From positions 5,568-69,567 of the forward strand of contig CAZDJZ010000011.1 of NCBI GenBank assembly GCA_964505785.1: a DNA stretch of 64,000 nt, given 5' to 3'. The DNA comes from an uncultured Eubacteriales bacterium. GTDB taxonomy: Bacteria > Acidobacteriota > Aminicenantia > Aminicenantales > Aminicenantaceae. How positions within the stretch are numbered: the first letter of the stretch is position 1; each line of letters begins with the position of its first letter. Below the pieces are notes generated by a model. That model saw only the letters and a list, made by a program, of their open reading frames with translations, was not told where the DNA came from and made no database searches. The translations under genes were made by a program, and so were the position numbers. Shown piece by piece: positions 3,255 to 62,836 of the stretch.

Positions 3255-3309
3255 TGCTTATCGCAATGGGTTGTTCTGAGTCATTAGTTCGTAAACAACA
3301 GGACAGCTA

Positions 3310-5313
3310 TCATCCTGAACGCAGCGAGCTGACCTTCTCATATGAAATCAGCCGGGCGTTGACGGCAACAATGATGGTGCTGATAGACATCACCAAAGCA
3401 CCGGCCGCTGGCGCCATGACAATACCGTATGGATAGAGAACGCCGGCTGCCAAAGGAATGGCAAGAACATTATATCCGGTCGCCCAAGCCAGATTTTGTT
3501 TCATTTTCCTGCGGGTAATCCGGGAAAAATTCAGTATATGACACACGTCTTTGGGATTATTTTCCACTAGAATCACATCGGCGGTCTCTGCAGCCACATC
3601 CGTACCCGCACCAATGGCAATTCCCAGGTCGGCTTGCGCCAATGCCGGAGCATCGTTGATTCCATCCCCAACCATAGCTACTTTTTTTCCTTCGGCCTGG
3701 AGTTTTTTGACTTTTTCCGATTTTTTATCCGGAAGAACTCCGGCAAACCAGGTTTCAATTCCGAGCTCACCGGCTACATATTCAGCAGTGGCCTTATTAT
3801 CTCCTGTGATAAGGGCTACTTCAATCCCCCGGTTTTTCAAGTCCTCGACTGCTTGCCTTGATTCATCCCGGATCATATCGGTCATTCCGATAACACCTTG
3901 AACCTTTCCGCCGGAAAGCACAAACACGGTTGTCTTTCCCTTTGAAGCCAGCTTTTCCATCTGCTGCTCTGCTTCTGATGTATCAGAAATATCTTCCAGC
4001 ACGGCTTTATTTCCAACGCGGATTGCTTCTCCCTGGATTTCAGCCTGAGCGCCTTTTCCGGGTATCGCTTTAAATTCGGAAGATTCCGGGATATTCAATT
4101 CTTTTTCTTCCGCCAGCTTAACAATCCCCTTGGCTATAGAATGTTCAGATTCCTTTTCAACCGATGCCGCCATTTGCAAAATCTTATCCTCTTCCCAGCC
4201 GGCAAGAGATACCACATCCGTTACACCGAATTCCCCTTTTGTCAAAGTCCCTGTTTTATCAAACATGACCGCTTGGATTTTTCGGGATTCTTCAAAAGCT
4301 GTCCGGTTTCGAATCAATAGACCGTTCTTGGCTGACAACGTCGTGATAACGGCGATGACCAAGGGGACGGCCAAACCGAGGGCATGAGGGCAGGTGATCA
4401 CCATGACCGTCACCATCCGTTCGAGAGAAAAAACAAAGGGTTTTCCGTAAATGATCCAAACGGATAATGTTACAATTCCAACAGATAACGCAATGATGGT
4501 TAACCAAAATGCCGCCCGGTCAGCGAAGCTCTGGGCTTCGGACTTGCTTTGCTGTGATTTTTCAACCAATTCTATCATTTGGTTCAAGTAGGAATCTTTT
4601 CCGGTTTTGGATACCTTGATTGTTAATGACCCGTTTCCATTGACAGCACCTCCGATAACATCGTCTCCCTCTTTCTTGGAAACCGGCTCCGATTCTCCTG
4701 TTATCATGGCCTCATCGACCTCTGACTCCCCTTTCTGAATGAGCCCGTCCACAGGAATCTTTTCTCCGGGTTTCACCAGGACTTTATCATCTTTATCCAA
4801 TTCATGAATTTCCACATCTTCGGTCTGACTACCCATAGTGATCCGGTGGGCTTTGGACGGCATCAATTGAGCCAATTCCTCCAAAGCCCGGGAAGCCCCC
4901 ATGACCGAACGCATTTCCACCCAATGTCCCAGAAGCATGACGTCTATCAGGGTGACCAGTTCCCAGAAAAAAACCTTGCCTGCAACACCGAATACAACCG
5001 CAGCGGAATAAGCATAGGCCACCGTGATTGCCAGCGCTATCAAGGTCATCATACCCGGCTGTTTCTTTCGGACTTCCCGGGCAAAACCTTTAAGAAACGG
5101 CCATCCGCCGTAGATATATATGAAGGATGAAAACCCAAACAGTATCCACATCCTCCCTGAGAAGCTCCAGGAAATCCCGATAAAAGACTGAATCATAGGG
5201 GAAAGAACTAAAACCGGGATAGATACAGTCAGGGATATCCAGAACCTGATTTTAAAGTCCGTCAGCATATGAGCGTGTTGATTGTGACCTTTTTTTTGAT
5301 GACGATAACTCAT
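3310..5313 (-). CDS. copB: copper-translocating P1B-type ATPase, CPH-motif / His-rich N-terminus subtype (CopB-like)
   Basis: TGES, DKTGTLT and GDGINDAP P-type motifs. TM6 carries CPH ([12 protein letters not shown]). His-rich N-terminus [16 protein letters not shown] and no CxxC HMA domain. Confidence 0.9.
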
Positions 5314-5352: not shown

Positions 5353-5363
5353 ACTTTTATATT

Positions 5364-5674
5364 AACCTTATTTATTCACGGGCCGAGATTGCGGCAGACG
5401 ACGACAATTTTTCATTCAATTACGTGCTGAGGCCTGAGAAGCAGGCCGCAAGGATCTTATGGTGCTTCGTTCATTGAGTCGGCACCGATTCAATGACGAC
5501 GCAGTACAATATCCTTACGTTGCTTCACTTCGCTCAGGACAACCCTGGCGGGTTGTTTTCGGACTAATAGTTCAGGATAATTTGATTTTGGAACCCGGGA
5601 ATAATATACTAACCTTGATTATTCATAAAAAATTGCGATGTTTTAGCAATCTCAGCCTGTGAATAACCCAGGCT
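5364..5674. mobile_element. candidate MITE-like unit bounded by inverted family-A ends, carrying a family-B hairpin (5424-5540)
   Basis: The left end is aaccttatttattcacgggccgagattgcggcagacg (5364-5400). The right end is tagcaatctcagcctgtgaataacccaggct (5644-5674). An extra A-tract variant copy lies at 5611-5640, head-to-head with the right end. Confidence 0.45.
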
Positions 5675-5681
5675 AAAAATT

Positions 5682-20829: not shown

Positions 20830-21141
20830 TTAAAATAAACCCGGTATTTTCATACCGGCGCCGACTGCGCCGATCTTTTCTTTGATTTGTTCATCCACCT
20901 TGGTGGATGCATCATTGAATGCCGCACTGATCAAGTCCTGCAGCATATCTACATCCTCTTTATCCACCACTTCAGGATCGATTCGGATGGATTCAAGATT
21001 TTTATGTCCATCCATGGTCACCGCCACCATTCCACCGCCGCTGGAGCCTTCCACTTTCAACTCTTCTAATTCCCGCTGCATTTTTTCCTGCATCTGCTGG
21101 GCCTGTTTCATCATTTTTTGAAGATTGCCTACGCCTTTCAT
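20830..21141 (-). CDS. ybaB: YbaB/EbfC family nucleoid-associated protein
   Basis: 103 aa. MMKQAQQMQEKMQ...GGGMV.VTMDG pattern. Canonical position between dnaX and recR. Confidence 0.93.
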   Translation of the reverse strand: MKGVGNLQKMMKQAQQMQEKMQRELEELKVEGSSGGGMVAVTMDGHKNLESIRIDPEVVDKEDVDMLQDLISAAFNDASTKVDEQIKEKIGAVGAGMKIPGLF

Positions 21142-22585: not shown

Positions 22586-22684
22586 TATTTTGTAAGTCCG
22601 TCGGATCCGGAGATGCAGGTTTGTATATAATTAAACCGTATTTTAGCATAAATGACGTGCAAATCAAAAAAGTATTTTACCTGG

Positions 22685-22716
22685 CCTGGATTATTAACGG
22701 GCCGAGACGGCCGAAC
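22685..22716 (+). repeat. family-A repeat
   Basis: cctggattattaacgggccgagacggccgaac. Confidence 0.75.
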
Positions 22717-27061: not shown

Positions 27062-27188
27062 AACCTGACTTATTATTCGAAAATCGATTTTTCATGGCAA
27101 TGGATAAGGGTCATCCGACTGCGAAATGCTTTTCAGATTTGAGATGTTATACCGCATCTGCGGCAATCCCGGTCCATGAATAATCCAG
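27062..27188. mobile_element. candidate MITE-like unit bounded by inverted family-A ends, inserted between pyrB and pyrI
   Basis: The left end aacctgacttattattcgaaaatcgattt (27062-27090) and the right end tctgcggcaatcccggtccatgaataatccag (27157-27188) are inverted family-A copies. Internally it carries a cagatttgagat (family D) word. No target-site duplication is evident. Confidence 0.4.
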
Positions 27189-27198
27189 AATAAAAAGA

Positions 27199-30808: not shown

Positions 30809-30899
30809 GGAGAGGTGTCCGAGTGGCTTAAGGAGCACGCTTGGAAAGCGTGTGTACGGTTTTCCCGTACCATGGGTTCGAATCCCATCCTCTCCGCCA
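30809..30899 (+). tRNA. tRNA-Ser (anticodon GGA), CCA encoded
   Basis: Folded by hand. 7-bp acceptor GGAGAGG/CCTCTCC, anticodon stem CACGC/GCGTG with loop TTGGAAA, long variable arm GTACGG/CCGTAC, and T-arm ATGGG-TTCGAAT-CCCAT. Confidence 0.95.
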
Positions 30900-31038
30900 C
30901 TTTTTTCTTAGTTCGAAAACGACCAGAAGGATCTCCACGCTGCATCGTTTTTAAACGCTTTTGACGCGAGCGCAGCGAGTTGCGCTTCTCGGAATGATAT
31001 ATGTATTCATTTTCGTGTGTTATGCAGCGGATAAAATA

Positions 31039-32512: not shown

Positions 32513-33850
32513 ATGTCAAAAACAAAAAGTGAACTGAGCTTAAAAAAAATATTCATTTTCTGGGCGCCGCTGGCCGCGACATGGATGATGATGGCCACGG
32601 AAGGACCGTTTTTAGCCGCTGTCATAGCCCGGCTGGCAGACCCGAAATTCAATCTGGCTGCCTACGGGGTGGCTTTTTCTCTTGCGGTTTTGATTGAATC
32701 TCCCGTCATTATGATCATGAGCGCGTCCACGGCTCTTGTTAAAAACCGGGATTCATATTTTAAACTCAGAAATTTTACTTTCATCCTAAACGGCGCCGTC
32801 ACCCTTGTCATGCTCTTCATCCTCATCCCCCCTGTCTTTGATGGAATCACTTTATCCGTCATGAAATTAAACCCGGAGGTGGCGGAATTAACCCAACGCG
32901 CCTGTATCCTTTTCATTCCCTGGCCCGCGGCCATTGGATACCGGCGTTTCTACCAGGGAATACTGGTCCGAAGCAATATGACCAGACGGGTGGCTTACGG
33001 CACGGTGATACGTCTCGGCACTATGGCGGTTTCCGCCCTTATATGCTATCTTTTCACTTCTATTCCCGGTGCTATGGTCGGGACTCTGGCCTTATCCGCC
33101 GGCGTGACCGCAGAAGCAGCAGCCAGCCGAATCATGGCGCATTCGGCTACCAAAAGAGTTCTCCTCTCCACCTCCAGCTCCGGCAGGGAATTGAATTACA
33201 GGTACATCGCCCGTTTTTATTATCCTTTGGCCCTGACTTCCATCTTAAGTTTGGGAATCCACCCGATGGTCACTTTTTTCATGGGGCAAAGCCGGATGCC
33301 TTTGGAATCCTTAGCGGTTCTTCCGGTCGTTAACTCATTGATTTTTGTTTTCCGCAGCCTTGGCCTTTCCTTTCAGGAGGTGAGCATTGCACTTCTTGGG
33401 GAAAACAAGGAGGGATACCCTTGCCTCAAAAAATTCGCCACCATCCTCGGAATCACAGCCAGCGGCGGCCTGGTACTTATCGGTTTTTCCCCCCTGGCCC
33501 TGGTTTGGTTTCATAACATCTCCGGACTAACCATGGAGCTGACCAAATTCTCCCTGGCCCCCGCCCGAATACTCAGCCTTCTTCCCGGTTTATCCGTCCT
33601 GCTCTCTTTTCAAAGATCGATCATGGTCAACCATGAAACCACGAAACATATAACTATCGCCACGGCGATCGAAATAATCTCTATATTTTCATTGCTGATG
33701 ATCTTTATCAGCGGATTTTACTTAATTGGGGCTATTGCGGCAGCTATTGCTCTTTCCTCCGGACGGCTTCTCGCCAATATATATTTGCTTTTCCCATGCG
33801 CCCGGGCACTGAAAAACCGCCCGTCTCCAGGTCTGACGGAGTCTATCTAA
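32513..33850 (+). CDS. 12-TM membrane protein, MATE/MOP-superfamily-like (uncharacterised)
   Basis: 445 aa, polytopic. The N-terminal pattern ...AAVIARLADPKFNLAAYGVAFSLAVLIESP is reminiscent of MOP transporters. The last ~7 codons (PGLTESI*) are encoded by the family-E repeat array. Confidence 0.5.
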   Translation: MSKTKSELSLKKIFIFWAPLAATWMMMATEGPFLAAVIARLADPKFNLAAYGVAFSLAVLIESPVIMIMSASTALVKNRDSYFKLRNFTFILNGAVTLVMLFILIPPVFDGITLSVMKLNPEVAELTQRACILFIPWPAAIGYRRFYQGILVRSNMTRRVAYGTVIRLGTMAVSALICYLFTSIPGAMVGTLALSAGVTAEAAASRIMAHSATKRVLLSTSSSGRELNYRYIARFYYPLALTSILSLGIHPMVTFFMGQSRMPLESLAVLPVVNSLIFVFRSLGLSFQEVSIALLGENKEGYPCLKKFATILGITASGGLVLIGFSPLALVWFHNISGLTMELTKFSLAPARILSLLPGLSVLLSFQRSIMVNHETTKHITIATAIEIISIFSLLMIFISGFYLIGAIAAAIALSSGRLLANIYLLFPCARALKNRPSPGLTESI

Positions 33851-33903
33851 GTCCATCTATGTCTGTCTAGGTCTACCTAAGTCTATTCTGTCTGTTCAGT
33901 CGG
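33831..33903 (+). repeat. family-E phased array: ~7 units of GTCTRYCTAR at 9-10-bp spacing
   Basis: The array reads gtctgacgga gtctatctaa gtccatctat gtctgtctag gtctacctaa gtctattctg tctgttcagt. It contains the stop codon of the 32513-33850 gene. Confidence 0.85.
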
Positions 33904-33918
33904 CTCGCTTCGTTCAGG

Positions 33919-33941
33919 ATGACAGCTTCGCTGTCATTTTT
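33919..33941 (+). terminator. candidate rho-independent terminator
   Basis: ATGACAG-cttcg-CTGTCAT followed by TTTT. It is embedded in a family-B fragment (cgcttcgttcaggatgac), downstream of 32513-33850. Confidence 0.5.
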
Positions 33942-34021: not shown

Positions 34022-34063
34022 AGATTTGAGATTTGAGATTTGAGTTTTGAGTTTTGAGATCAG
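34022..34063. repeat. 7-nt tandem tract (AGATTTG x3, AGTTTTG x2, AGATCAG)
   Basis: agatttgagatttgagatttgagttttgagttttgagatcag. Its last unit overlaps the thiF stop codon (34060-34062). Confidence 0.9.
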
Positions 34064-34905: not shown

Positions 34906-35083
34906 TTACTCCTTCATCCTGCTTAGGAGTAAGAGTGAAGAGAAAAACCAATTTGTTACAGCGTATAATAGAAGCGGCAAACCTCACTCAATCCATTCAC
35001 CACTCACCATTCACCATTAACGTATTTAAGCGGTTTTCGGAGAAATTAAAATAAATAGCCGCAAAGAATACTTTCCAACCAGA

Positions 35084-35891: not shown

Positions 35892-35898
35892 ACTCTGT

Positions 35899-36045
35899 GT
35901 CATCACGAAGCGGCGTAAGGATCTTATGCGGCCTCGCGGAGGAGAGACGGAACCGATTCCTTCGGCGAAGCCATCTAAGATCCCCACGGCCGCTAATGCG
36001 GCCTGGAGAAGACATGTATATGCTGCCGCAGGCCTCAGGATGACA
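35899..36045. repeat. family-B long-hairpin element
   Basis: gtcatcacgaagcggcgtaaggatcttatg ... catctaagatcc ... gcaggcctcaggatgac. It starts 8 nt from the tRNA-Ser 5' end. Confidence 0.7.
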
Positions 36046-36046
36046 G

Positions 36047-36070
36047 CAATCCAGCCCGTGAATAATCAGA
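36047..36070 (-). repeat. family-A repeat (partial)
   Basis: gcaatccagcccgtgaataatcag, directly fused to the family-B element. Confidence 0.6.
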
Positions 36071-36640: not shown

Positions 36641-36674
36641 TCACTTTTCACTTTTCACTTTTCACTTTTCACTT
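36641..36674. repeat. 7-nt tandem tract (TCACTTT x ~5)
   Basis: tcacttttcacttttcacttttcacttttcactt, preceded by the family-B right arm cctcagaatgac. Confidence 0.9.
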
Positions 36675-38644: not shown

Positions 38645-38667
38645 ACCTTTACTGACTTATTACTTAG

Positions 38668-38697
38668 CCTGGATTATTCACAGGCCGGGCTGCCGCT
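38668..38697 (+). repeat. family-A repeat (variant 3' half)
   Basis: cctggattattcacaggccgggctgccgct. Confidence 0.7.
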
Positions 38698-45586: not shown

Positions 45587-45627
45587 GAAACCTCTTTAGA
45601 GTAAAAAGTGAAAAGTTATCTTATTAA

Positions 45628-45651
45628 ATCAAAAATCAAAAATCAAAAAAA
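45628..45651. repeat. 8-nt tandem tract (ATCAAAAA x3)
   Basis: aatcaaaaatcaaaaatcaaaaaa. The reverse-complement version occurs at 52775-52801. Confidence 0.85.
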
Positions 45652-45668: not shown

Positions 45669-45693
45669 GGACCGAACAGACCGAATAGACTTA
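45669..45693 (-). repeat. family-E array, short (CGAACAGAC CGAATAGAC)
   Basis: ggaccgaacagaccgaatagactta, followed at 45717-45732 by cgcgagcgaagcgagc. The same word follows the family-E array at 60461-60530. Confidence 0.7.
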
Positions 45694-45749
45694 AATAACG
45701 CAAAGAATGCAATAAACGCGAGCGAAGCGAGCTGCAAACCCTATAGTTT

Positions 45750-46181
45750 CTATGAATGCGGGTTGACGTTCTCAATAATGATCCTGCGGCTTTCATCTTC
45801 ACAAACTTTGATTACAATACGAATATGTTTATTCTGGACAGGGTACTTTTCCGCCCATTCAATAAGCATAATCCCTTCTCCGATAAAATCTTCCCATCCC
45901 AAGTCCTCAATTTCCTCCCGGGTGTTCAACCGGTAAAAATCCAGATGGTAAACCGGGACCCTCGCCTGATACACATTCATGAGAGTAAAAGAGGGGCTGC
46001 AAACCTGGTTGACGTTCTTAAGACCCAATCCTGCGGCCACTCCTTTTGCAAAAACGGTTTTCCCGGCCCCCAATTCTCCGGATAAACAAATTATTTCATC
46101 CCCTTCCAGGAAAGCCCCAAATCTTCTGGCGATTTCAAATGTATTCTTTTCGGAATGAGACAGATACTCTTTTTTGCTCAT
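45750..46181 (-). CDS. tsaE: tRNA t6A37 biosynthesis ATPase TsaE
   Basis: Walker A GELGAGKT, SPSFTL and HLDFYRL motifs. Confidence 0.93.
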   Translation of the reverse strand: MSKKEYLSHSEKNTFEIARRFGAFLEGDEIICLSGELGAGKTVFAKGVAAGLGLKNVNQVCSPSFTLMNVYQARVPVYHLDFYRLNTREEIEDLGWEDFIGEGIMLIEWAEKYPVQNKHIRIVIKVCEDESRRIIIENVNPHS

Positions 46182-47754: not shown

Positions 47755-47790
47755 CGAAACTCCTTATTAGTTCGAAAACGGCACGTAAGG

Positions 47791-47909
47791 GTCGTCCTGA
47801 GGACGCGTTAGCGCCCAAAGGATCTTAAACTGCTTCGCATGATGGATAGGCCTACCGTCTCACCTGCCGATGCACTCTAAGATTCCCGTCGCTTCGCTTC
47901 GGGAATGAC
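47791..47909. repeat. family-B long-hairpin element (degenerate), preceded by TTAGTTCGAAAACG word
   Basis: gtcgtcctgagg...aaaggatcttaaac...ctctaagattccc...gggaatgac. The 14-mer ttagttcgaaaacg at 47767-47780 recurs at 30908-30921. Confidence 0.55.
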
Positions 47910-51748: not shown

Positions 51749-51768
51749 TTTTATCATTGTGATGAATT

Positions 51769-51917
51769 AACCTGGATTGTTCATGGGCCGAGATTGCCGC
51801 AGATACGGTTAGATCCGGCCCTCCTGAAAATGATTTATGTGTATACTACACCCGGAACAATGAAAATGAATCCATCTTCCGTCCTGGCGGGTCATTTTCC
51901 AAGTAATAACCCAGGTT
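51769..51917. mobile_element. candidate MITE-like unit bounded by inverted family-A ends, in the peroxiredoxin 5' leader
   Basis: The left end is aacctggattgttcatgggccgagattgccgcaga (51769-51803). The right end gtcctggcgggtcattttccaagtaataacccaggtt (51881-51917) reverse-complements to aacctgggttattacttgg.... Confidence 0.45.
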
Positions 51918-52657: not shown

Positions 52658-52707
52658 TATACCCGCCTCACACAACCCCCATATTATTCCCTAAGCGGAA
52701 ACCCTAT

Positions 52708-52760
52708 GTCATCCTGAGGCACAAAACGACGAAAGGGTCTCACAGGTTAGAAAGCCTCCG
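52708..52760. repeat. family-B left-arm fragment
   Basis: gtcatcctgaggcacaaaacgacgaaagggtctcacagg. Confidence 0.5.
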
Positions 52761-52774
52761 GATGGCTCATAAGG

Positions 52775-52801
52775 GATTTTTTGATTTTTGATTTTTGATT
52801 T
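52775..52801. repeat. 8-nt tandem tract (TTTTTGAT x3)
   Basis: gattttttgatttttgatttttgattt, the reverse complement of the tract at 45628-45651. Confidence 0.85.
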
Positions 52802-52865
52802 AATAAAATAACATCTTGCTTTATACTTTTCACTTTTACTCCACGAAGAAAAGGAGGTATGTATT

Positions 52866-56890: not shown

Positions 56891-56902
56891 GTTATAAAAA
56901 TT

Positions 56903-56962
56903 GTAAAGAGTGAAGAGTAAAGAGAAAAAATCAGAGAAAAGTGAGAAGTAAAAAGTGAAAAG
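56903..56962. repeat. purine-rich degenerate tract (GTAAAGAG / GTGAAGAG / AAAGTGA units)
   Basis: gtaaagagtgaagagtaaagagaaaaaatcagagaaaagtgagaagtaaaaagtgaaaag. Related words occur at 33937-33960, 34921-34945, 45598-45617 and 5891-5915. Confidence 0.8.
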
Positions 56963-56992
56963 TTATCCTATTAAATTAAAATGACTTAATGC

Positions 56993-57609
56993 ACCTGAAT
57001 TATTCACAAGCCGAGATTGCGGCAAATGCGAGGCGCAGAGATTTCAAAAAATAATCCTCGAAATAAAACAGATTGAACAATGAGGAAATGAGGAGTATGA
57101 ATAGAAATAGATGGACATATACAGCCCTGGTCTGGTTTTTTTTGAAGTCACAGGGGATTGATTATATGATACTTTATAGACGGTGAAAATGAATCCACAT
57201 GCTAAATACTACCTAACCTGGATTATTCACGGGCCGAGATTGCCGCAGACGACGGCAATACGTTAATTTATTGTCGTTCTGAGGAGCATAGCGACAAAGG
57301 ATCTTAGACGGCGCTTGCACGAGAAGACGATGACGCTTCATTCAGCGAAAAAGTCTAAGATCCTCACGGCCTGCCGGCGCAGGCCTCAGGACGACATTGA
57401 TTCAATCAAGGTCGTCACTTCACTGCGACGAGCTGCAAACCGGAAGATGCGGTGAGATTCGGCTCGCCCGAAGGGGTGAAAAATTGCGGTTATAATTTAA
57501 GGAGGCAAATGAAAAACTTTCAATTTGAACTTTTAATTAAAATCATGTTAATCGCTGATAAAAAAGTTTTTGCAAAAACATCGCAATTTTTTTATGAATA
57601 ATTCAGGCT
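56993..57609. mobile_element. composite repeat region bounded by inverted family-A copies (56993 + / 57579 -), with a nested family-A copy (57215 +) and a full family-B hairpin (57273-57395)
   Basis: The left end is acctgaattattcacaagccgagattgcggcaaa. The inner copy is aacctggattattcacgggccgagattgccgcagac. The right end is catcgcaatttttttatgaataattcaggct. No ORF of 60 aa or more is present. Confidence 0.4.
57273..57395. repeat. family-B long-hairpin element (best copy)
   Basis: Outer stem GTCGTTCTGAGG / CCTCAGGACGAC (11 of 12 bp plus one G-U). Inner stem AGGATCTTAGAC / GTCTAAGATCCT (12 of 12 bp). Confidence 0.8.
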
Positions 57610-60246: not shown

Positions 60247-60275
60247 GAGCCTCAAACCGGCCTGTCAGGCTCTGT

Positions 60276-60397
60276 GTCATTCTGAGGGCTGCGCAAAAGC
60301 CTGAAGAATCCCAAATTGCTTCGTTTAGAAGAATCGGGTCTGTTTTATTCAGACGATGCAGTTTGGAATCCTTCGTCGCTCTGCTCCTCAGGATGAT
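60276..60397. repeat. family-B long-hairpin element
   Basis: gtcattctgaggg...gaagaatcccaaa ... tttggaatccttc...cctcaggatga. Confidence 0.75.
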
Positions 60398-60460
60398 ATA
60401 GGATTTCCGCTCAGGAAATAACATGGGATTGGAGGACAGAACGATCAAGGCCGAGCCGAT

Positions 60461-60530
60461 TGAATAGACCGAATAGACAGAACAGACTGAATAGACTTAG
60501 ACAAACCCAGACAGATCAAGATGGACCTAA
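60461..60530 (-). repeat. family-E phased array (NGAAYAGAC units, 9-nt spacing)
   Basis: tgaatagac cgaatagac agaacagac tgaatagac ttagac aaacccagac agatcaagatggac. It is followed at 60544-60559 by cgcgagcgaagcgagc. Confidence 0.85.
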
Positions 60531-60564
60531 AGAATACTTGGAACGCGAGCGAAGCGAGCAGAGC

Positions 60565-62730
60565 TTAAGGCCCTTTGATATACCCCAGCGCTTTCAGTTC
60601 TTCTTCCAGTTCAGGCGGAATCTCCGCTTGTTCCGCTTGGATATCCCGGCGCGATTCCATGTTCCGGTAGATCATAAGCTCTTGCAAAAGGGAATAATCA
60701 GCAAACGCATCCAATTTCACTGGATTCTGCTCTTGTTCATCCTCCAGGAGATACATCTCAAGCAAAGGAATATAGGGATGATGCGGCGGCCGCCTGAATT
60801 CCAGGTTATAGATCAGTTTCCGGTCCTGTCCCATGACAGCATTTATGCGGTTGCCGCCCCGGTAATTTTCAAAATAGACATTCCGCTGAGAATCAGACAG
60901 CGACAGCAGTGAATGCCCGTCCAAATCATACGTTACCGGGATGCCCGCGATATCCAGGACAGTAGGAAAAATATCCGAGAGCTGGACTCTATCCCGGTGT
61001 ATCCCTTTTTCCATCCGGGGCGCCTTAATCACAAGCGGAATATGGACCGATTCATTATAAACGTTTTCTCCGTGTTTAACGCCGCCGTGTTCAAAAAACT
61101 GTTCTCCATGGTCAGACGTAAAAATGATCGCCATGTCTTCATAAAACCCCAGTTCCTTAAGCTTATCCAGCAGCTGACTAAAGGCGGCATCGTTTTCATA
61201 GATTTCCTGGTCATACCGGGTTTTGACAAATTCAAGCTGGGAAGGAGAGAGAGAAATCCGGCCGAATCTGACATCTTCCATAAAATCAAACGGATAGGTA
61301 TCAATATATTGATGCTTTTCAACGTCAAATTTATCCTTGTTTTCATTGCGCGGCGTATAGGGGTCATGCGGGTCCATAGTCCAGATCAGCAGAAACAGCG
61401 GCGGATGGTCTTCCCGGCGATGATACTCGTCCAGGAAATCGAAAATACGGCGGTTCATTTCCTGTGCAGTGATATTCAAGGTGCCGGGATAAATTCCGCT
61501 AAGCTCCTCGTATTTATCAAATCCGCGGCTGAACCCGAAAATCCGGTTTAAATTGCCGTTTCCGTTAAACGCGGCGGTCATATATCCTTCTTTTTTTAAA
61601 ATTTCCGGAAAGGTAATAATTTCTTCAGAGAGTTTTCCAAATCTCCCGGTGGTTTTATGGTTTTTAGGATACAAGCCGGTCAGGATGGATGCGCCGCTGG
61701 GCCTGGTCCAAGGGCTGTTGGCATAAGCGGATGAATAGATAGCGTTTTCTTGTGCAAATTGATCCAGCACCGGGGAAGTCCTGTAGGAATATCCATAACA
61801 GCTCAGATGATCCGCCCGCAGCGTATCCACAACATAAACAAGGATATGCGGCCGTTTTTCCGGATGCGGCTTGATATCATCCGGGGGCGGTCTTTCACTA
61901 TTTGCACTTAAAACAATCTTGTTCCAGATCACAAAACTGTCTTCCCTTCCCTGGTTAATAAATTTAATGATAGTATCCCCGCGGTCCGGAAGAGATATTG
62001 TTTTATTCCACTGGGCTTTATCGGCATCCAGGACAAATGATTTGATTCGTTTATTATTCCGCCAAAACTCAATCATGGACTGTGTTCCGCGCATGTTTTG
62101 ATAAGCCGCTGTCATCCTGAATTTTTCCGGCAAATCAGCATAATAGCTGAAATCCGTACCTCCGGCATGAATAAGCCTTCCATCAGAATCAGACTGTAAT
62201 GCATAGCCCAAAGTGATTGCTTTGAAAACAGCGGCATATGCTTTTTCCTGATTGTCGGATTGGCTGAGATAAGCAAACTGGAAGTCAAGCATATTTTTCC
62301 CGGTCCTGAGCCGCTCTTTCGGCAAGGCAATGCGATAATGCTTCTCATGTTCAGATTCCAAAACAAAATTCTTTATGAAACTGCCGTTTAAATGCAAGGA
62401 TACATTTTGAACCTCTCCTTTGCCGGAAGGATTCGCCCGGGCATCAAGTTCCAAGATCACATCATTAGGCCGGGCCAAATAATTAAAGCTTGCCCGGGCC
62501 TTTAGACCGGCAGCCCATAAAAAATCCGGCTGAGTACGGTCCCATCCGGCAAACAGGTCCGGATGCACATATCCTTCCTTTTTTAAATTGATTTCTCCTG
62601 TGTTTTCCTGAATTCGGGCTTTAACTGCGGATAAGACATCCAGATGCTTATCGAAATCCTCTCCGGCCGGAGAACACCCCATAAATCCTGAGATAAATAG
62701 AGCAGGAAGAAAACAAATATACATTCGCAT
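60565..62730 (-). CDS. lipoprotein, sulfatase-like hydrolase/transferase (alkaline-phosphatase superfamily) with ~290-aa N-terminal extension
   Basis: Lipobox MRMYICFLPALFISGFMGC (ATG at 62730; the track start is 62760). VYVVDTLRADH metal site. SPWTRPSGASILTG aligns with the sulfatase CSPSRASLLTG box but has Thr in place of the Cys/Ser. Confidence 0.8.
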   Translation of the reverse strand: MRMYICFLPALFISGFMGCSPAGEDFDKHLDVLSAVKARIQENTGEINLKKEGYVHPDLFAGWDRTQPDFLWAAGLKARASFNYLARPNDVILELDARANPSGKGEVQNVSLHLNGSFIKNFVLESEHEKHYRIALPKERLRTGKNMLDFQFAYLSQSDNQEKAYAAVFKAITLGYALQSDSDGRLIHAGGTDFSYYADLPEKFRMTAAYQNMRGTQSMIEFWRNNKRIKSFVLDADKAQWNKTISLPDRGDTIIKFINQGREDSFVIWNKIVLSANSERPPPDDIKPHPEKRPHILVYVVDTLRADHLSCYGYSYRTSPVLDQFAQENAIYSSAYANSPWTRPSGASILTGLYPKNHKTTGRFGKLSEEIITFPEILKKEGYMTAAFNGNGNLNRIFGFSRGFDKYEELSGIYPGTLNITAQEMNRRIFDFLDEYHRREDHPPLFLLIWTMDPHDPYTPRNENKDKFDVEKHQYIDTYPFDFMEDVRFGRISLSPSQLEFVKTRYDQEIYENDAAFSQLLDKLKELGFYEDMAIIFTSDHGEQFFEHGGVKHGENVYNESVHIPLVIKAPRMEKGIHRDRVQLSDIFPTVLDIAGIPVTYDLDGHSLLSLSDSQRNVYFENYRGGNRINAVMGQDRKLIYNLEFRRPPHHPYIPLLEMYLLEDEQEQNPVKLDAFADYSLLQELMIYRNMESRRDIQAEQAEIPPELEEELKALGYIKGP

Positions 62731-62836
62731 TAAGATACCGGTCTTAGGATTGGTTGCCATTATTGTTCACTTTGCCACGCGGCCTGCGGCCGCTCGCCAA
62801 TGACGCGTGGGTCGCTCCTGAAAATAAACCGGCTTT

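What the first reader, a model, noticed from the sequence alone, without database searches (positions are those of the whole stretch)
33831..33903. Family E: 9-10-bp phased GTCTA/TAGAC arrays at three gene ends
33831-33903 contains seven consecutive units beginning GTCT at 10,10,10,10,10,9,9-nt spacing, about one helical turn. 60461-60530 and 45669-45693 carry the reverse-complement units (N-GAAYAGAC) at 9-nt spacing. Both of those are followed 14-25 nt later by the identical 16-mer cgcgagcgaagcgagc (60544-60559 and 45717-45732).

Helical phasing of a 5-nt core resembles iterons or arrays for a DNA-bending or bridging protein rather than ordinary microsatellites. Their recurrence with a conserved flank shows they are part of a dispersed element.
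Basis: seen in the sequence. Interest (0 to 1): 0.6.

Follow-up and report, generated by a model that had tools for sequence, protein, structure and literature searches.

The report
Dispersed 9-nt-periodic intergenic repeat element
The three GTCT/AGAC arrays are real copies of a non-coding repeat that an uncultured Aminicenantes-like bacterium carries just after gene ends; one copy is kept by selection across species and copies change length by whole units, but they are not iterons or bent DNA and their binding partner is unknown.

Summary
All three arrays and the identical 16-mer are at the stated coordinates and never appear in shuffled sequence.

- The arrays are homologous copies of one composite element of about 64-110 nt, with a conserved order of units. 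The invariant core is TAAGTCTATTCNGTCTGTTC.
- The dominant period is 9 nt, not a helical turn. Only copies A and B contain 10-nt stretches.
- The "conserved flank" GCTCGCTTCGCTCGCG is itself two 9-nt units. It acts as punctuation inside longer arrays that keep one 9-nt register, and it also occurs without any GTCT array.

The host is a housekeeping chromosome of an Aminicenantes-like bacterium, so there is no plasmid or replication context. Each window copy starts at or just after a stop codon on the sense strand, beside REP-like hairpin modules, giving a BIME-like mosaic.

The element is multi-copy in metagenomes. Copies B and C are lineage-specific. A sister strain lacks exactly 18 nt (two units) of B. 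Copy A is 91-92% identical in a species whose synonymous sites are only 52% identical.

The arrays are unstructured as RNA, predicted straight as DNA, and match no Rfam family.

My best reading, held with low confidence, is a periodic docking track for an oligomeric protein acting on the 3' flank. Whether it is read as RNA or as DNA is unresolved.

The parts
33831..33907 (+). Copy A. Five 10-nt units (GTCTGACGGA, GTCTATCTAA, GTCCATCTAT, GTCTGTCTAG, GTCTACCTAA), then the 9-nt units GTCTATTCT, GTCTGTTCA and GTCGGCTCG. The first two units encode the last residues and the TAA stop (33848-33850) of the 445-aa membrane-protein gene at 32513-33850.
   Evidence: Read directly. ORF. Shuffle tests. Lag-10 z=4.5. 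The ortholog in L010 is 70/76 identical. Orthologs with different unit counts or a different junction appear in L004 and in runs X5-X7.
33903..33918 (+). 16-mer-like punctuation motif GCTCGCTTCGTTCAGG. It matches the reverse complement of CGCGAGCGAAGCGAGC with 3 mismatches. It lies after the GTCT units in A, and runs into a REP-like right-half motif TTCAGGATGAC.
   Evidence: The same order (GTCT units then GCTCGCTTCGCTCGCG) is seen in L008 and, as GGCTCACTGCGCTCGCACG, in L010. A dispersed relative lies at 3293-3333 (pair I5).
33919..33941 (+). Hairpin ATGACAGC-TTC-GCTGTCAT followed by a T run. It looks like an intrinsic terminator and would place copy A inside the 3' UTR of the upstream gene.
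   Evidence: Read directly. Fold is -13.2 kcal/mol, z=-2.46. The consensus terminator scan did not flag it. It is absent from the L010 ortholog.
60450..60543 (-). Copy B, with the GTCT strand on the minus strand. Read in the sense of the sulfatase-like gene (60565-62760, minus strand) after the 16-mer, it runs: four to five 10-nt units, TAAGTCTATTCAGTCTGTTCTGTCTATTCGGTCTATTCAATC, then GGCTCGGC.
   Evidence: Read directly. Lag-9 z=4.4. As RNA it is less structured than shuffles (z=+2.1). It is absent from orthologous loci L139, L140 and L141. The strain in run X5 lacks exactly 18 nt at 60471. Depth is 40-310 over 60460-60496 against 3-6 in the flanks.
60544..60559 (-). 16-mer. In gene sense it reads GCTCGCTTCGCTCGCG and starts 5 nt after the sulfatase stop codon. 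It consists of two 9-nt units of the GCTCGCTTC type.
   Evidence: CTGCTCGCTTCGCTC is kept at the same place after the stop in L139 and, with one mismatch, in L141, although neither has the GTCT array.
45669..45716 (-). Copy C, with the GTCT strand on the minus strand. In the sense of tsaE (45750-46181) after the 16-mer it runs TTTATTGCA TTCTTTGCG TTATTTAA, then GTCTATTCG GTCTGTTCG GTCC. It lies between tsaE and thiE, upstream of a promoter-like (TTTTTGA)3 module.
   Evidence: Read directly. Register table and lag-9 z=4.8. In related genomes the junction is either an overlap of tsaE and thiE (L142) or a REP-like module (L143), with no array.
45717..45732 (-). 16-mer identical to the one at B. 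It lies 17 nt after the tsaE stop codon.
   Evidence: The stretch GCTCGC(T/G)...GCGTTTATTGC(A/G) is homologous to part of the composite array in L008.
30965..30980 (+). Possible orphan copy of the punctuation motif (CGCGAGCGCAGCGAGT, 2 mismatches). It lies downstream of a tRNA gene, probably in the 5' region of the ABC-ATPase gene rather than in its coding part.
   Evidence: The tRNA is at 30809-30896. The orthologous ABC gene is called at 218 aa in L010 against 248 aa for the longest window ORF. Not followed further.

Best explanation
**Shown**
- The three arrays are copies of one dispersed non-coding element in the chromosome of an uncultured Aminicenantes-like bacterium.
- Each copy is a run of 9-nt units, locally 10-nt, built around the invariant core TAAGTCTATTCNGTCTGTTC.
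- The copies are joined in one register to other 9-nt unit types. One of these is the "16-mer" GCTCGCTTC-GCTCGCG.
- In the window all three copies begin at or within 5-17 nt of a stop codon, with the T-rich, A-poor GTCT strand as the sense strand of the upstream gene.
- They are followed by a hairpin with a T run (A), REP-like hairpin modules (B), or a promoter-like module (C). Together this is a BIME-like intergenic mosaic.
- Copies are gained or lost as blocks between related species and change length by whole units.
- Once fixed, the unit core can be held by purifying selection.

**Inferred**
- The array is a cis-acting periodic docking track, with one unit per subunit of an oligomeric nucleic-acid-binding protein.
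- I think it is most likely read on the transcript, as an unstructured pyrimidine-rich stretch exposed just behind the terminating ribosome. There it would help define or insulate the 3' end of the upstream gene.
- The concrete candidate is a Rho-type hexamer. From memory, it binds YC dinucleotides, and its roughly 57-nt primary footprint works out to about 9.5 nt per protomer.
- A sequence-specific RNA-binding protein fits the strict motif conservation better. The partner is unknown.
For: **Homology and anatomy**
- Unit-by-unit alignment of A, B and C.
- The core 20-mer is shared by all lineage copies. 15 of 15 nine-nt units are invariant at positions 1-4 and 6-8, alternate A then G at position 5, and are free at position 9.
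- The 9-nt register is kept across unit types for about 150 nt in L008 (lag-9 z=7.4 and 9.2).

**Selection**
- The non-coding part of A differs at 5 of 56 positions from its ortholog in L010, with no indel. The flanking genes are 75-77% identical and third codon positions 52% identical, giving P about 5e-10.
- Orthologs (92%) are closer than paralogs (A versus B, 75%), so gene conversion does not explain the conservation.

**Position and strand**
- A, B and C all lie after a stop codon on the sense strand.
- Among independent non-coding loci carrying the 20-mer, 6 lie 5-27 nt after a stop in GTCT sense, 2 are antisense and further away, and 1 is in a divergent region.
- In the L010 species the array plus a 16-mer-like tail fills the whole 70-nt spacer between two convergent genes, and there is no hairpin.
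- In C the array occupies the terminator slot of an inserted terminator-promoter-like cassette. Relatives there have overlapping tsaE and thiE.

**RNA properties**
- No structure beyond shuffles: z=+0.2 to +2.1.
- T is 39-41% and A is 12-19% on the sense strand. C/G is 1.2-1.4 in A and B.
- Lengths of 64-110 nt correspond to 7-11 units.
Against: - No transcript data could be found, so transcription and 3' ends are not shown.
- The sense-strand orientation (3 of 3 in the window, 6 of 8 overall) is not statistically significant.
- In the broad class of similar arrays from metagenomes, arrays after stop codons are equally often in either orientation (11 versus 11). Gene calls there are crude and the set is mixed.
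- C/G is only 1.0-1.4 and G is about 20%, which is weak for a rut site.
- Rut sites are not sequence-conserved, whereas 8 of 9 unit positions here are invariant.
- Some co-registered unit types (CTAGGGTTR) have no YC dinucleotide.
- In the window, A is followed by its own terminator-like hairpin, which would make a second termination device redundant.
- No candidate binding protein was identified.
Confidence: 0.3

Rival explanations
1. Double-stranded DNA array for a nucleoid-associated or global regulatory protein, essentially the first reader's idea. Each TAGAC/GTCTA unit would bind one subunit of a cooperative DNA-binding protein, for example a ribbon-helix-helix or winged-helix type. The filament would organise, bridge or roadblock the DNA between genes.
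For: - Conservation of a 5-8 nt core with a free spacer base fits sequence-specific recognition, and the site is conserved in place.
- From memory, there are precedents for gapless short direct repeats bound on DNA: MetJ metboxes AGACGTCT (8 bp), omega heptads WATCACW (7 bp) and ParR/parC (10-11 bp).
- Geobacter metallireducens has paired 7-9-nt tandem-repeat sites, which its authors proposed as binding sites for a global regulator or for IHF/HU (PMC2700814).
- The broad class shows no transcription-orientation bias after stop codons (11 versus 11).
- Partner arrays occur in one fixed inverted order only (11 versus 0).
- A roadblock could also explain the hairpin-free 70-nt convergent spacer in L010.
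Against: - A 9-nt period puts successive sites about 51 degrees apart around the helix, and 9- and 10-nt units are mixed within one array.
- No predicted curvature.
- The positions are gene 3' ends rather than promoters.
- Different unit sequences share one register, which a single sequence-specific binder does not explain.
- No candidate protein gene lies next to any copy. A ybaB/ebfC gene at 20830-21141 is part of the universal dnaX-ybaB-recR cluster.
Confidence: 0.25
2. Selfish or neutral repeat DNA. The arrays would be by-products of slippage and of the spread of a mosaic REP/MITE-like element that lands in harmless spots just past stop codons. They would have no function for the host.
For: - Multi-copy in several metagenomes.
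- B and C are lineage-specific insertions.
- Length changes by whole units: 18 nt missing in a 98-99% identical strain, and one extra unit of each length in L004.
- The gene-array junction differs in the strains of runs X5-X7.
- The arrays abut coding sequence as if expansion stops only where selection starts.
- They are associated with REP-like palindromic modules.
Against: - A is 91-92% identical, with the same unit order and no indel, across a divergence that has saturated synonymous sites.
- Substitutions concentrate on unit positions 5 and 9/10.
- Orthologs are closer than paralogs, which rules out homogenisation.
- No transposase or RAYT gene, terminal inverted repeats or target duplications were seen in the parts of the window examined.
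Confidence: 0.2
3. RNA-RNA zipper. GUCU arrays in 3' UTRs would pair, in any register, with AGAC arrays in other transcripts or in the same transcript. The result would be long imperfect duplexes that act as terminator stems or RNase III targets.
For: - In other genomes about 9% of arrays have an inverted AGAC-type partner 5-106 nt downstream, always in the order GTCT then AGAC.
- The pair in L002 is followed by a run of nine T.
- AGAC-sense arrays tend to lie just upstream of start codons in the broad class (8 versus 3).
Against: - The three window copies are singletons more than 10 kb apart, all in GUCU sense relative to the upstream gene, with no AGAC-sense partner in 64 kb.
- There are no expression data.
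Confidence: 0.05
4. Plasmid-type iterons or a partition centromere (parC/parS-like).
For: The only support is the general look of short direct repeats.
Against: - The context is chromosomal and housekeeping, conserved in synteny across species.
- Units are 9-10 nt.
- There are at least 3 copies in 64 kb and tens in metagenomes.
- No rep or par genes are adjacent.
- There is no similarity to any plasmid in PLSDB.
Confidence: 0.02
5. Coding tandem repeats: tripeptide repeats, or a C-terminal extension.
For: - A 9-nt period equals three codons.
- The A-poor strand has few stop codons, so long open frames run through the arrays.
- Some hits of the metagenome pattern are genuine coding collagen-like (GGA ACA GAC)n repeats.
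Against: - The 10-nt units in A and B break any reading frame, and TAA/TAG occur in the units.
- Position 9 is free rather than behaving like a codon position.
- The ORFs through B and C overlap real genes on the other strand.
- Only the first two units of A are coding.
Confidence: 0.02

Closest known systems
BIMEs (bacterial interspersed mosaic elements) and REP sequences of enterobacteria
   Same: - Both are extragenic, multi-copy and placed just after stop codons, between convergent or co-directional genes.
- Both are built as mosaics of a few short conserved modules.
- The window arrays sit beside REP-like palindromic modules (GTCAT + stem + GAGCGAAGCGA-type loop).
- Modules turn over between related genomes.
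   Different: - The family E module is a non-palindromic tandem array with a 9/10-nt period and no secondary structure.
- No RAYT transposase was seen.
- The binding of IHF, gyrase or Pol I known for BIMEs (from memory) is untested here.
- The lineage is Aminicenantes-like, not Proteobacteria.
"Putative global regulator binding sites" (classes 1-3) and other multicopy nucleotide sequences of Geobacter metallireducens (Aklujkar et al. 2009, PMC2700814)
   Same: - Dispersed intergenic sites made of 3-5 tandem repeats of 7-9 nt: GTTGCTYN, TCTCCGTS[Y] and MTYCTGA.
- Tens of copies per genome, lineage-specific, function unknown.
- Many arrays in the broad metagenome class also come as inverted pairs at variable distance.
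   Different: - The unit sequences differ.
- The Geobacter sites are mostly paired on opposite strands, whereas the three window copies are single, longer (7-11 units) and composite.
- The Geobacter proposal (IHF/HU binding) was never tested, so it is a parallel rather than an explanation.
Operator or centromere arrays of short direct repeats bound by cooperative proteins: MetJ metboxes, omega heptads, ParR/parC, and OmpR/PhoB-family boxes such as the TorR box CTGTTCATAT
   Same: - Gapless or nearly gapless direct repeats of 7-11 bp with a conserved core.
- TAGA/AGAC-type boxes recall the Arc and MetJ recognition sequences (from memory).
- CTGTTCA occurs in the units.
   Different: - Those arrays lie in promoters or next to partition genes, number 2-10 units and keep a spacing suited to one helical face or a defined superhelix.
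- Here the arrays lie at gene 3' ends, with a 9-nt period mixed with 10, and no cognate gene is known.
- The resemblance is recalled, not tested.
Rho utilisation (rut) sites
   Same: - An unstructured, pyrimidine-rich stretch of 60-110 nt directly behind a stop codon on the sense strand.
- A YC-containing unit every 9-10 nt, close to the roughly 57 nt / 6 protomer primary footprint recalled for E. coli Rho.
   Different: - Rut sites are not sequence-conserved and are usually clearly C>G. Here C/G is 1.0-1.4 and 8 of 9 unit positions are fixed.
- No functional data exist.
Short tandemly repeated repetitive (STRR) heptamers of cyanobacteria, and BOX elements (boxA-boxB(n)-boxC) of Streptococcus pneumoniae
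   Same: - Dispersed intergenic tandem repeats of short units.
- The same window also carries many 7-nt arrays.
- Like BOX elements, the element is modular with a variable number of internal units.
   Different: - STRR units are 7 nt and homogeneous.
- BOX modules are 45-59 nt and fold into stable structures.
- Family E has heterogeneous 9/10-nt units and is unstructured.

Membership tests
Plasmid/phage replication iterons | Located in or next to an origin, adjacent to a rep initiator gene | tested here: not met
   The flanking genes are a membrane protein and thiF, radical-SAM and sulfatase, and tsaE and thiE. The window is housekeeping chromosome with conserved synteny. There is no plasmid similarity.
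Plasmid/phage replication iterons | Units of about 17-22 bp, repeated at helical phase | tested here: not met
   Units are 9 nt, locally 10 nt.
Partition centromere arrays (parC/parS type) | Single locus next to parA/parB or parM/parR genes | tested here: not met
   There are three loci in 64 kb plus tens of copies in metagenomes. No par-like gene was found among the 32 window proteins scanned or in the neighbours of the arrays. About 20 window proteins were not scanned.
Contingency-locus microsatellite (slippage-driven phase variation) | Identical units whose number varies freely between close strains | tested here: inconclusive
   Whole-unit length change exists: 18 nt (2 units) are missing from B in run X5, and L004 has one extra unit of each length. 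But units are heterogeneous, and A keeps unit number and order across species with saturated synonymous sites.
Contingency-locus microsatellite (slippage-driven phase variation) | Located in a promoter spacer or the 5' coding region, so that unit number switches expression | tested here: not met
   All three copies are in 3' flanks after stop codons.
REP/BIME-type mosaic intergenic repeats | Extragenic, multi-copy, at gene 3' ends, combined with other short modules in variable order | tested here: met
REP/BIME-type mosaic intergenic repeats | The repeat unit is an imperfect palindrome (hairpin) with a conserved 5' tetranucleotide | tested here: not met
   The arrays have no self-complementarity (z=+0.2 to +2.1). 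The neighbouring GTCATCCTGAGG... modules do have it.
REP/BIME-type mosaic intergenic repeats | A cognate RAYT (Y1 transposase) in the genome | not testable with these tools
   None was found among the window proteins scanned.
Rho-dependent terminator (rut site) | An unstructured region of about 70-80 nt of nascent RNA downstream of the stop codon | tested here: met
Rho-dependent terminator (rut site) | Clearly C-rich and G-poor | tested here: inconclusive
   C/G is 1.38 (A), 1.22 (B) and 1.00 (C), with G at 20-21%.
Rho-dependent terminator (rut site) | Rho-dependent 3' ends in vivo or in vitro | not testable with these tools
   No RNA runs hold this organism.
Intrinsically curved DNA | Predicted curvature well above the genomic background | tested here: not met
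   Wedge model: A has mean 6.0 degrees (18th percentile) and an end-to-end ratio of 0.991. B is at the 61st percentile. A phased A-tract control gave 52 degrees. The parameters were recalled from memory.
Any curated RNA family (Rfam 15) | Covariance-model match | tested here: not met
   Only three tRNAs and chance-level hits were found, and nothing lies at the arrays.

The most novel reading that the evidence does not exclude
Family E would be the local representative of an unrecognised and very widespread class of bacterial cis-elements. These are composite arrays kept in a strict 9-nt register (GTCTRTYYN and co-registered unit types) that serve as polymerisation tracks for a conserved oligomeric nucleic-acid-binding protein. 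The register, rather than any single motif, would be the selected feature. Such arrays would form a hairpin-free system for marking or insulating gene boundaries in Aminicenantes/Acidobacteriota and other environmental phyla.
Probability: 0.15. Interest if true: 0.75.

Novelty: new variant of a known kind. Interest (0 to 1): 0.5.

Why it matters
Uncultured phyla such as Aminicenantes have no genetics, so their regulatory and chromosome-organising signals are essentially unknown. This element is short and easy to recognise. It is common in environmental metagenomes, and at least one copy is under strong purifying selection.

If it is a docking track for a protein, it offers a handle for finding that protein by pull-down or DAP-seq. 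It would also help in reading gene boundaries in these genomes. If it acts in termination, it would be an example of a sequence-defined, hairpin-free 3'-end signal.

There are practical consequences too:
- The arrays break short-read assemblies at gene ends.
- They create spurious open reading frames.
- They supply stop codons and C-terminal residues to neighbouring genes.

All three matter for annotating metagenome-assembled genomes.

Tried and rejected
**Searches that led nowhere**
- Rfam at gathering and at permissive thresholds: nothing at the arrays.
- RNA-seq or metatranscriptome runs for this organism: none listed, even with PFOR and 10 kb of sequence as bait.
- BLAST of copy B against PLSDB plasmids: no match.
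- Literature searches for nonanucleotide or 9-bp repeats, for the literal sequence of the REP-like loop motif (CTGAGCGAAGCGAAGGA), and for Aminicenantes or Vecturithrix repeats: nothing relevant. Only the Geobacter metallireducens parallel came up.

**Ideas considered and rejected**
- Intrinsic curvature: rejected by the wedge model.
- Primase-site array or another replication-oriented signal. The unit contains CTA/CTG, but A is on the plus strand and B and C on the minus strand within one replichore of uniform GC skew.
- Coding repeats. The 10-nt units and in-unit stop codons rule this out for A and B. The open frames on the GTCT strand follow from its low A content.
- Antisense promoter inside the array. 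One weak sigma-70-like match against 0.5 expected.
- CRISPR, type III antitoxin arrays and integrase arm-type sites. The period is too short, or no associated element is present.

**Tests that were not informative**
- Intrinsic terminators are only mildly enriched in the window: 95 sites against about 75 expected over 60 kb. This neither supports nor excludes reliance on factor-dependent termination.
- Gene-context statistics on the 120 metagenome loci are crude. They rest on ORF heuristics, many contigs are GC-rich, and coding collagen-like repeats are mixed in.
Full report
**1.

- Copy A has units starting at 33831, 33841, 33851, 33861, 33871, 33881, 33890 and 33899, giving spacing 10,10,10,10,10,9,9. 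One unit starts GTCC and the last starts GTCG.
- Copy B has four reverse-complement units NGAAYAGAC at 9-nt spacing (60461-60497), then four 10-nt units up to 60530.
- Copy C has two to three units at 45669-45693.
- CGCGAGCGAAGCGAGC is identical at 60544-60559 and 45717-45732.

Dinucleotide-preserving shuffles give 0.04-0.29 expected matches where 4-5 are observed, and no shuffle reaches the observed count. Tandem Repeats Finder reports the same arrays.

**2. The three arrays are homologous copies of one element**

Reverse-complemented A aligns with B unit by unit (75% over 69 nt; pair I1):
- A: TATCTAAGTC CATCTATGTC TGTCTAGGTC TACCTAAGTC TATTCTGTC TGTTCAGTC GGCTCG
- B: TCTTTAGGTC CATCTTGATC TGTCTGGGTT TGTCTAAGTC TATTCAGTC TGTTCTGTC (two extra units) GGCTCG

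All copies share TAAGTCTATTCNGTCTGTTC. This includes C and the copies found in relatives L004, L008 and L010.

Across 15 nine-nt units from 7 copies, positions 1-4 and 6-8 never vary. Position 5 is A in the first unit and G in the second. Position 9 takes all four bases. So this is a defined element with polarity, not three independent microsatellites.

**3. The period is 9 nt, and the 16-mer is part of the periodic structure**

Lag autocorrelation peaks at 9 for B and C (z=4.4 and 4.8) and for the long composite arrays of L008 (z=9.2 and 7.4). Only A peaks at 10 (z=4.5).

The 16-mer read on the GTCT strand is GCTCGCTTC GCTCGCG, which is two 9-nt units.

In L008 one register runs for about 150 nt through, in order:
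- GTCTRTTCN units,
- the 16-mer,
- four CTAGRGTTR units,
- a second 16-mer,
- five YWTCGCGTT units.

Window copy C is 16-mer, then GCGTT-type units, then GTCT units, all in the same register. The GTCT units can lie before the 16-mer (A, L008, L010) or after it (B, C).

At the B locus of two related species the motif CTGCTCGCTTCGCTC is kept right after the stop codon, although no GTCT array is present. The 16-mer is therefore a separate punctuation module, not a flank that defines the element.

**4. Host and setting**

- The best named relatives of the Nnr protein are "Candidatus Aminicenantes bacterium", at 80% identity.
- The window sequence is held in runs labelled microbial mat, freshwater sediment, soil and unspecified metagenome.
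- The window is core chromosome: pyruvate kinase, PFOR, dnaX-ybaB-recR, pyrBI, glutamine synthetase, thiF, nnr-tsaE-thiE and three tRNAs. Synteny is conserved in relatives.

| Copy | Position | What follows on the sense strand |
|---|---|---|
| A | Overlaps the last codons and the TAA stop of a 445-aa membrane-protein gene; lies between that gene and convergent thiF | A stable hairpin plus a T run (33919-41; z=-2.46) |
| B | The 16-mer starts 5 nt after the stop of a sulfatase-like gene; between convergent genes | Two REP-like hairpin modules |
| C | The 16-mer lies 17 nt after the tsaE stop | A (TTTTTGA)3-TTTAATAAGATAAC promoter-like module, a heptamer leader and the thiE ribosome-binding site |

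In all three the T-rich, A-poor GTCT strand is the sense strand of the upstream gene.

The intergenic regions of this genome are mosaics of a few recurring modules. The closest described architecture is the BIME.

**5. Copy number and turnover**

- In six metagenome runs the flanking genes have depth 3-11 (one contig), while the arrays attract many contigs with depth 40-310. The unmatched continuations of those contigs show the same composite vocabulary: AAGAACGCN, AACYCTAGN, GAAYAGACN and AACGCGAGCGAAGCGAGC.
- B is absent from the orthologous spacer of the L139/L140 species and of L141 (sulfatase protein 64% and 72% identical to the window's). The 16-mer-like motif and the REP-like module are kept there.
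- C is absent from relatives. In L142 tsaE and thiE overlap. In L143 a REP-like module fills the gap.
- A is older. It is present in the window, in the L010-L013 species, in MAG CAYRTV01 (L004) and in the roughly 95% identical strains of runs X5-X7, where the gene-array junction differs. It is missing from the L014-L017 species.
- Length changes by whole units. The 98-99% identical strain in run X5 lacks exactly 18 nt (two units) of B. L004 has one more 10-nt unit and one more 9-nt unit than the window.

**6. Constraint**

Between the window and the L010 species:

| Region compared | Nucleotide identity |
|---|---|
| 445-aa gene | 77% |
| thiF | 75% |
| Third codon positions of the 445-aa gene | 52% |
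| Array A, 76 nt | 92% |
| Array A, non-coding part, 56 nt | 91% (5 differences) |

- The array keeps the same seven units in the same order, with no indel.
- The chance of so few differences at the third-position rate is about 5e-10.
- Five of the six differences fall on unit positions 5 and 9/10.
- Orthologs (92%) are closer than paralogs (75%), so concerted evolution does not explain the conservation.

**7. Physical properties**

- As RNA, neither strand of any copy folds better than shuffles. The GTCT strand of B folds worse (z=+2.1).
- The sense strand is 39-41% T and 12-19% A, with C/G of 1.0-1.4.
- As DNA, a wedge-model trajectory (parameters recalled from memory) predicts that A is straighter than 80% of the window and that B is average. 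A phased A-tract control bends 52 degrees.
- A 9-nt period is not helical phasing.
- No Rfam family matches.

**8. Wider distribution**

- The 20-mer core recurs in another Aminicenantes MAG (L009). It also occurs three times in MAG CAYTTR01, which its record labels "Eubacteriales".
- That set is mixed. Some hits are coding collagen-like (GGA ACA GAC)n repeats. Many are intergenic arrays abutting start or stop codons.
- With crude gene calls, arrays after stop codons are equally often in either orientation (11 versus 11).
- About 9% of arrays have an inverted partner array 5-106 nt away, always in the order GTCT then AGAC (11 versus 0).
- For the strict 20-mer family, 6 independent non-coding loci lie 5-27 nt after a stop codon in GTCT sense, 2 are antisense and further away, and 1 lies in a divergent region. 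This is a trend, not a significant result.

**9. How it most likely works**

Shown:
- It is a dispersed, composite tandem element in a 9-nt register.
- It lies at gene 3' flanks within a BIME-like mosaic.
- It is gained and lost as blocks and changes length by whole units.
- At least one copy has its unit core under purifying selection.

Inferred:
- It is a periodic docking track, with one unit per subunit of an oligomeric binder.
- I lean toward an RNA-level role that marks or insulates the 3' end of the upstream gene (confidence about 0.3). The reasons are:
  - its position directly behind stop codons on the sense strand;
  - the hairpin-free 70-nt convergent spacer of L010, which consists only of the array;
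  - copy C sitting in the terminator slot of an inserted terminator-promoter-like cassette;
  - the lack of RNA structure;
  - a length of 7-11 units.
- A Rho-type hexamer is a concrete candidate from memory: it binds YC dinucleotides, and its primary footprint of about 57 nt works out to about 9.5 nt per protomer. But the modest C/G ratio, and above all the strict motif conservation, fit a sequence-specific binder better.

Rivals:
It has precedents in the MetJ, omega and ParR arrays and in the untested Geobacter metallireducens "global regulator sites".
- A purely selfish or neutral repeat (about 0.2) fits the turnover but not the conservation.
- Iterons, partition sites and coding repeats are effectively excluded.

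**10. Verdict**

The feature is real and non-random. It is a new variant of a known kind, a mosaic intergenic repeat with tandem-repeat modules, in a phylum with no genetics. Its function is unknown but it is evidently under constraint. I found no description of it in the searchable literature. Interest is moderate (0.5).

Noticed in passing
window about 5420-5560, 35895-36060, 47790-47900, 52700-52745, 57295-57470, 60262-60400; also L018, L143, L145, L008: REP-like inverted-pair modules of the form GTCATCCTGAGG-[inner hairpin or GAGCGAAGCGA-type loop]-GAAGGATCTTA ... TAAGATCC-[...]-CCTCAGGATGAC. Stems differ between copies (ATCCT/AGGAT, ATTCC/GGAAT, ATCCC/GGGAT). The copy at 60262-60400 is 81% identical to its ortholog in L139, although the adjacent gene is 74% identical. 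Several copies flank tRNA genes.
   Followed up: partly
window 36641-36674, 45590-45612, 52836-52852, 34925-34950, 56900-56965: Heptamer arrays (CTTTTCA/CTCTTYA)n lie in sense orientation directly upstream of the ribosome-binding site of five different genes. They look like a recurring T-rich leader module. The unit TTTCACT is one mismatch from the omega-repressor heptad WATCACW (recalled from memory).
   Followed up: no
window 45613-45650 (minus strand) and 52777-52812 (plus strand): The module (TTTTTGA)3-TTTAATAA[G/A]ATAAC occurs twice (88% over 51 nt, pair I3). It reads as TTGATT-17 nt-TAAGAT/TAAAAT, a sigma-70-like promoter. The scan flags the second copy. At the C locus it separates tsaE from thiE, which overlap in a relative (L142).
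   Followed up: partly
window 5359-5408, 22678-22713, 27151-27193, 38661-38696, 51764-51813, 56987-57036, 57210-57259, 5655-5676: Another dispersed family of 36-46 nt, TAACCTGGATTATTCACGGGCCGAGATTGCCGCAGA, has at least eight copies on both strands (D1, D2, I4, I6, I25). Its function is unknown.
   Followed up: no
window 34022-34060; L018 6830-7005; L010 6847-6916: The (AGATTTG)5.6 array abuts the thiF stop codon. The ortholog in MAG CAYRTV01 has about 2.5 units at the same place and the L010 species has none. It is also multi-copy in metagenomes, with depth up to 543.
   Followed up: partly
L002, L005, L041-L043, L049, L108, L119, L132, L138: In other genomes GTCT-type arrays are followed 5-106 nt later by an inverted AGAC-type array, never in the opposite order (11 versus 0). 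In L002 the pair is followed by a run of nine T, like a very long imperfect terminator stem.
   Followed up: partly
L019, L034, L057, L059, L123, L136 (contigs of JGI sample Ga0068707 and others): In one metagenome, 9-nt arrays sit between two conserved flanks: GCAACTGGTCACGGGGGGTGGCGG on one side and GATTCCCGAGGGATTTGGCCTCCGGGGGATGCTTGCC on the other. This suggests a different composite element that uses the same array type.
   Followed up: no
L030, L031, L033, L037, L056, L126 and others: The pattern GTCTGTTCC repeated, with position 9 always C, lies inside long ORFs on the opposite strand and encodes (Gly-Thr-Asp)n collagen-like repeats. These coding repeats share the 9-nt motif with the non-coding arrays.
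   Followed up: no
window 33820-33850 compared with runs X5-X7: The C-terminal residues and stop codon of the 445-aa gene are supplied by the array. They differ between roughly 95% identical strains...CCTATGCAGATTCATGTAAGTCTAT in X5-X7 against ...CCGTCTCCAGGTCTGACGGAGTCTATCTAA in the window.
   Followed up: partly
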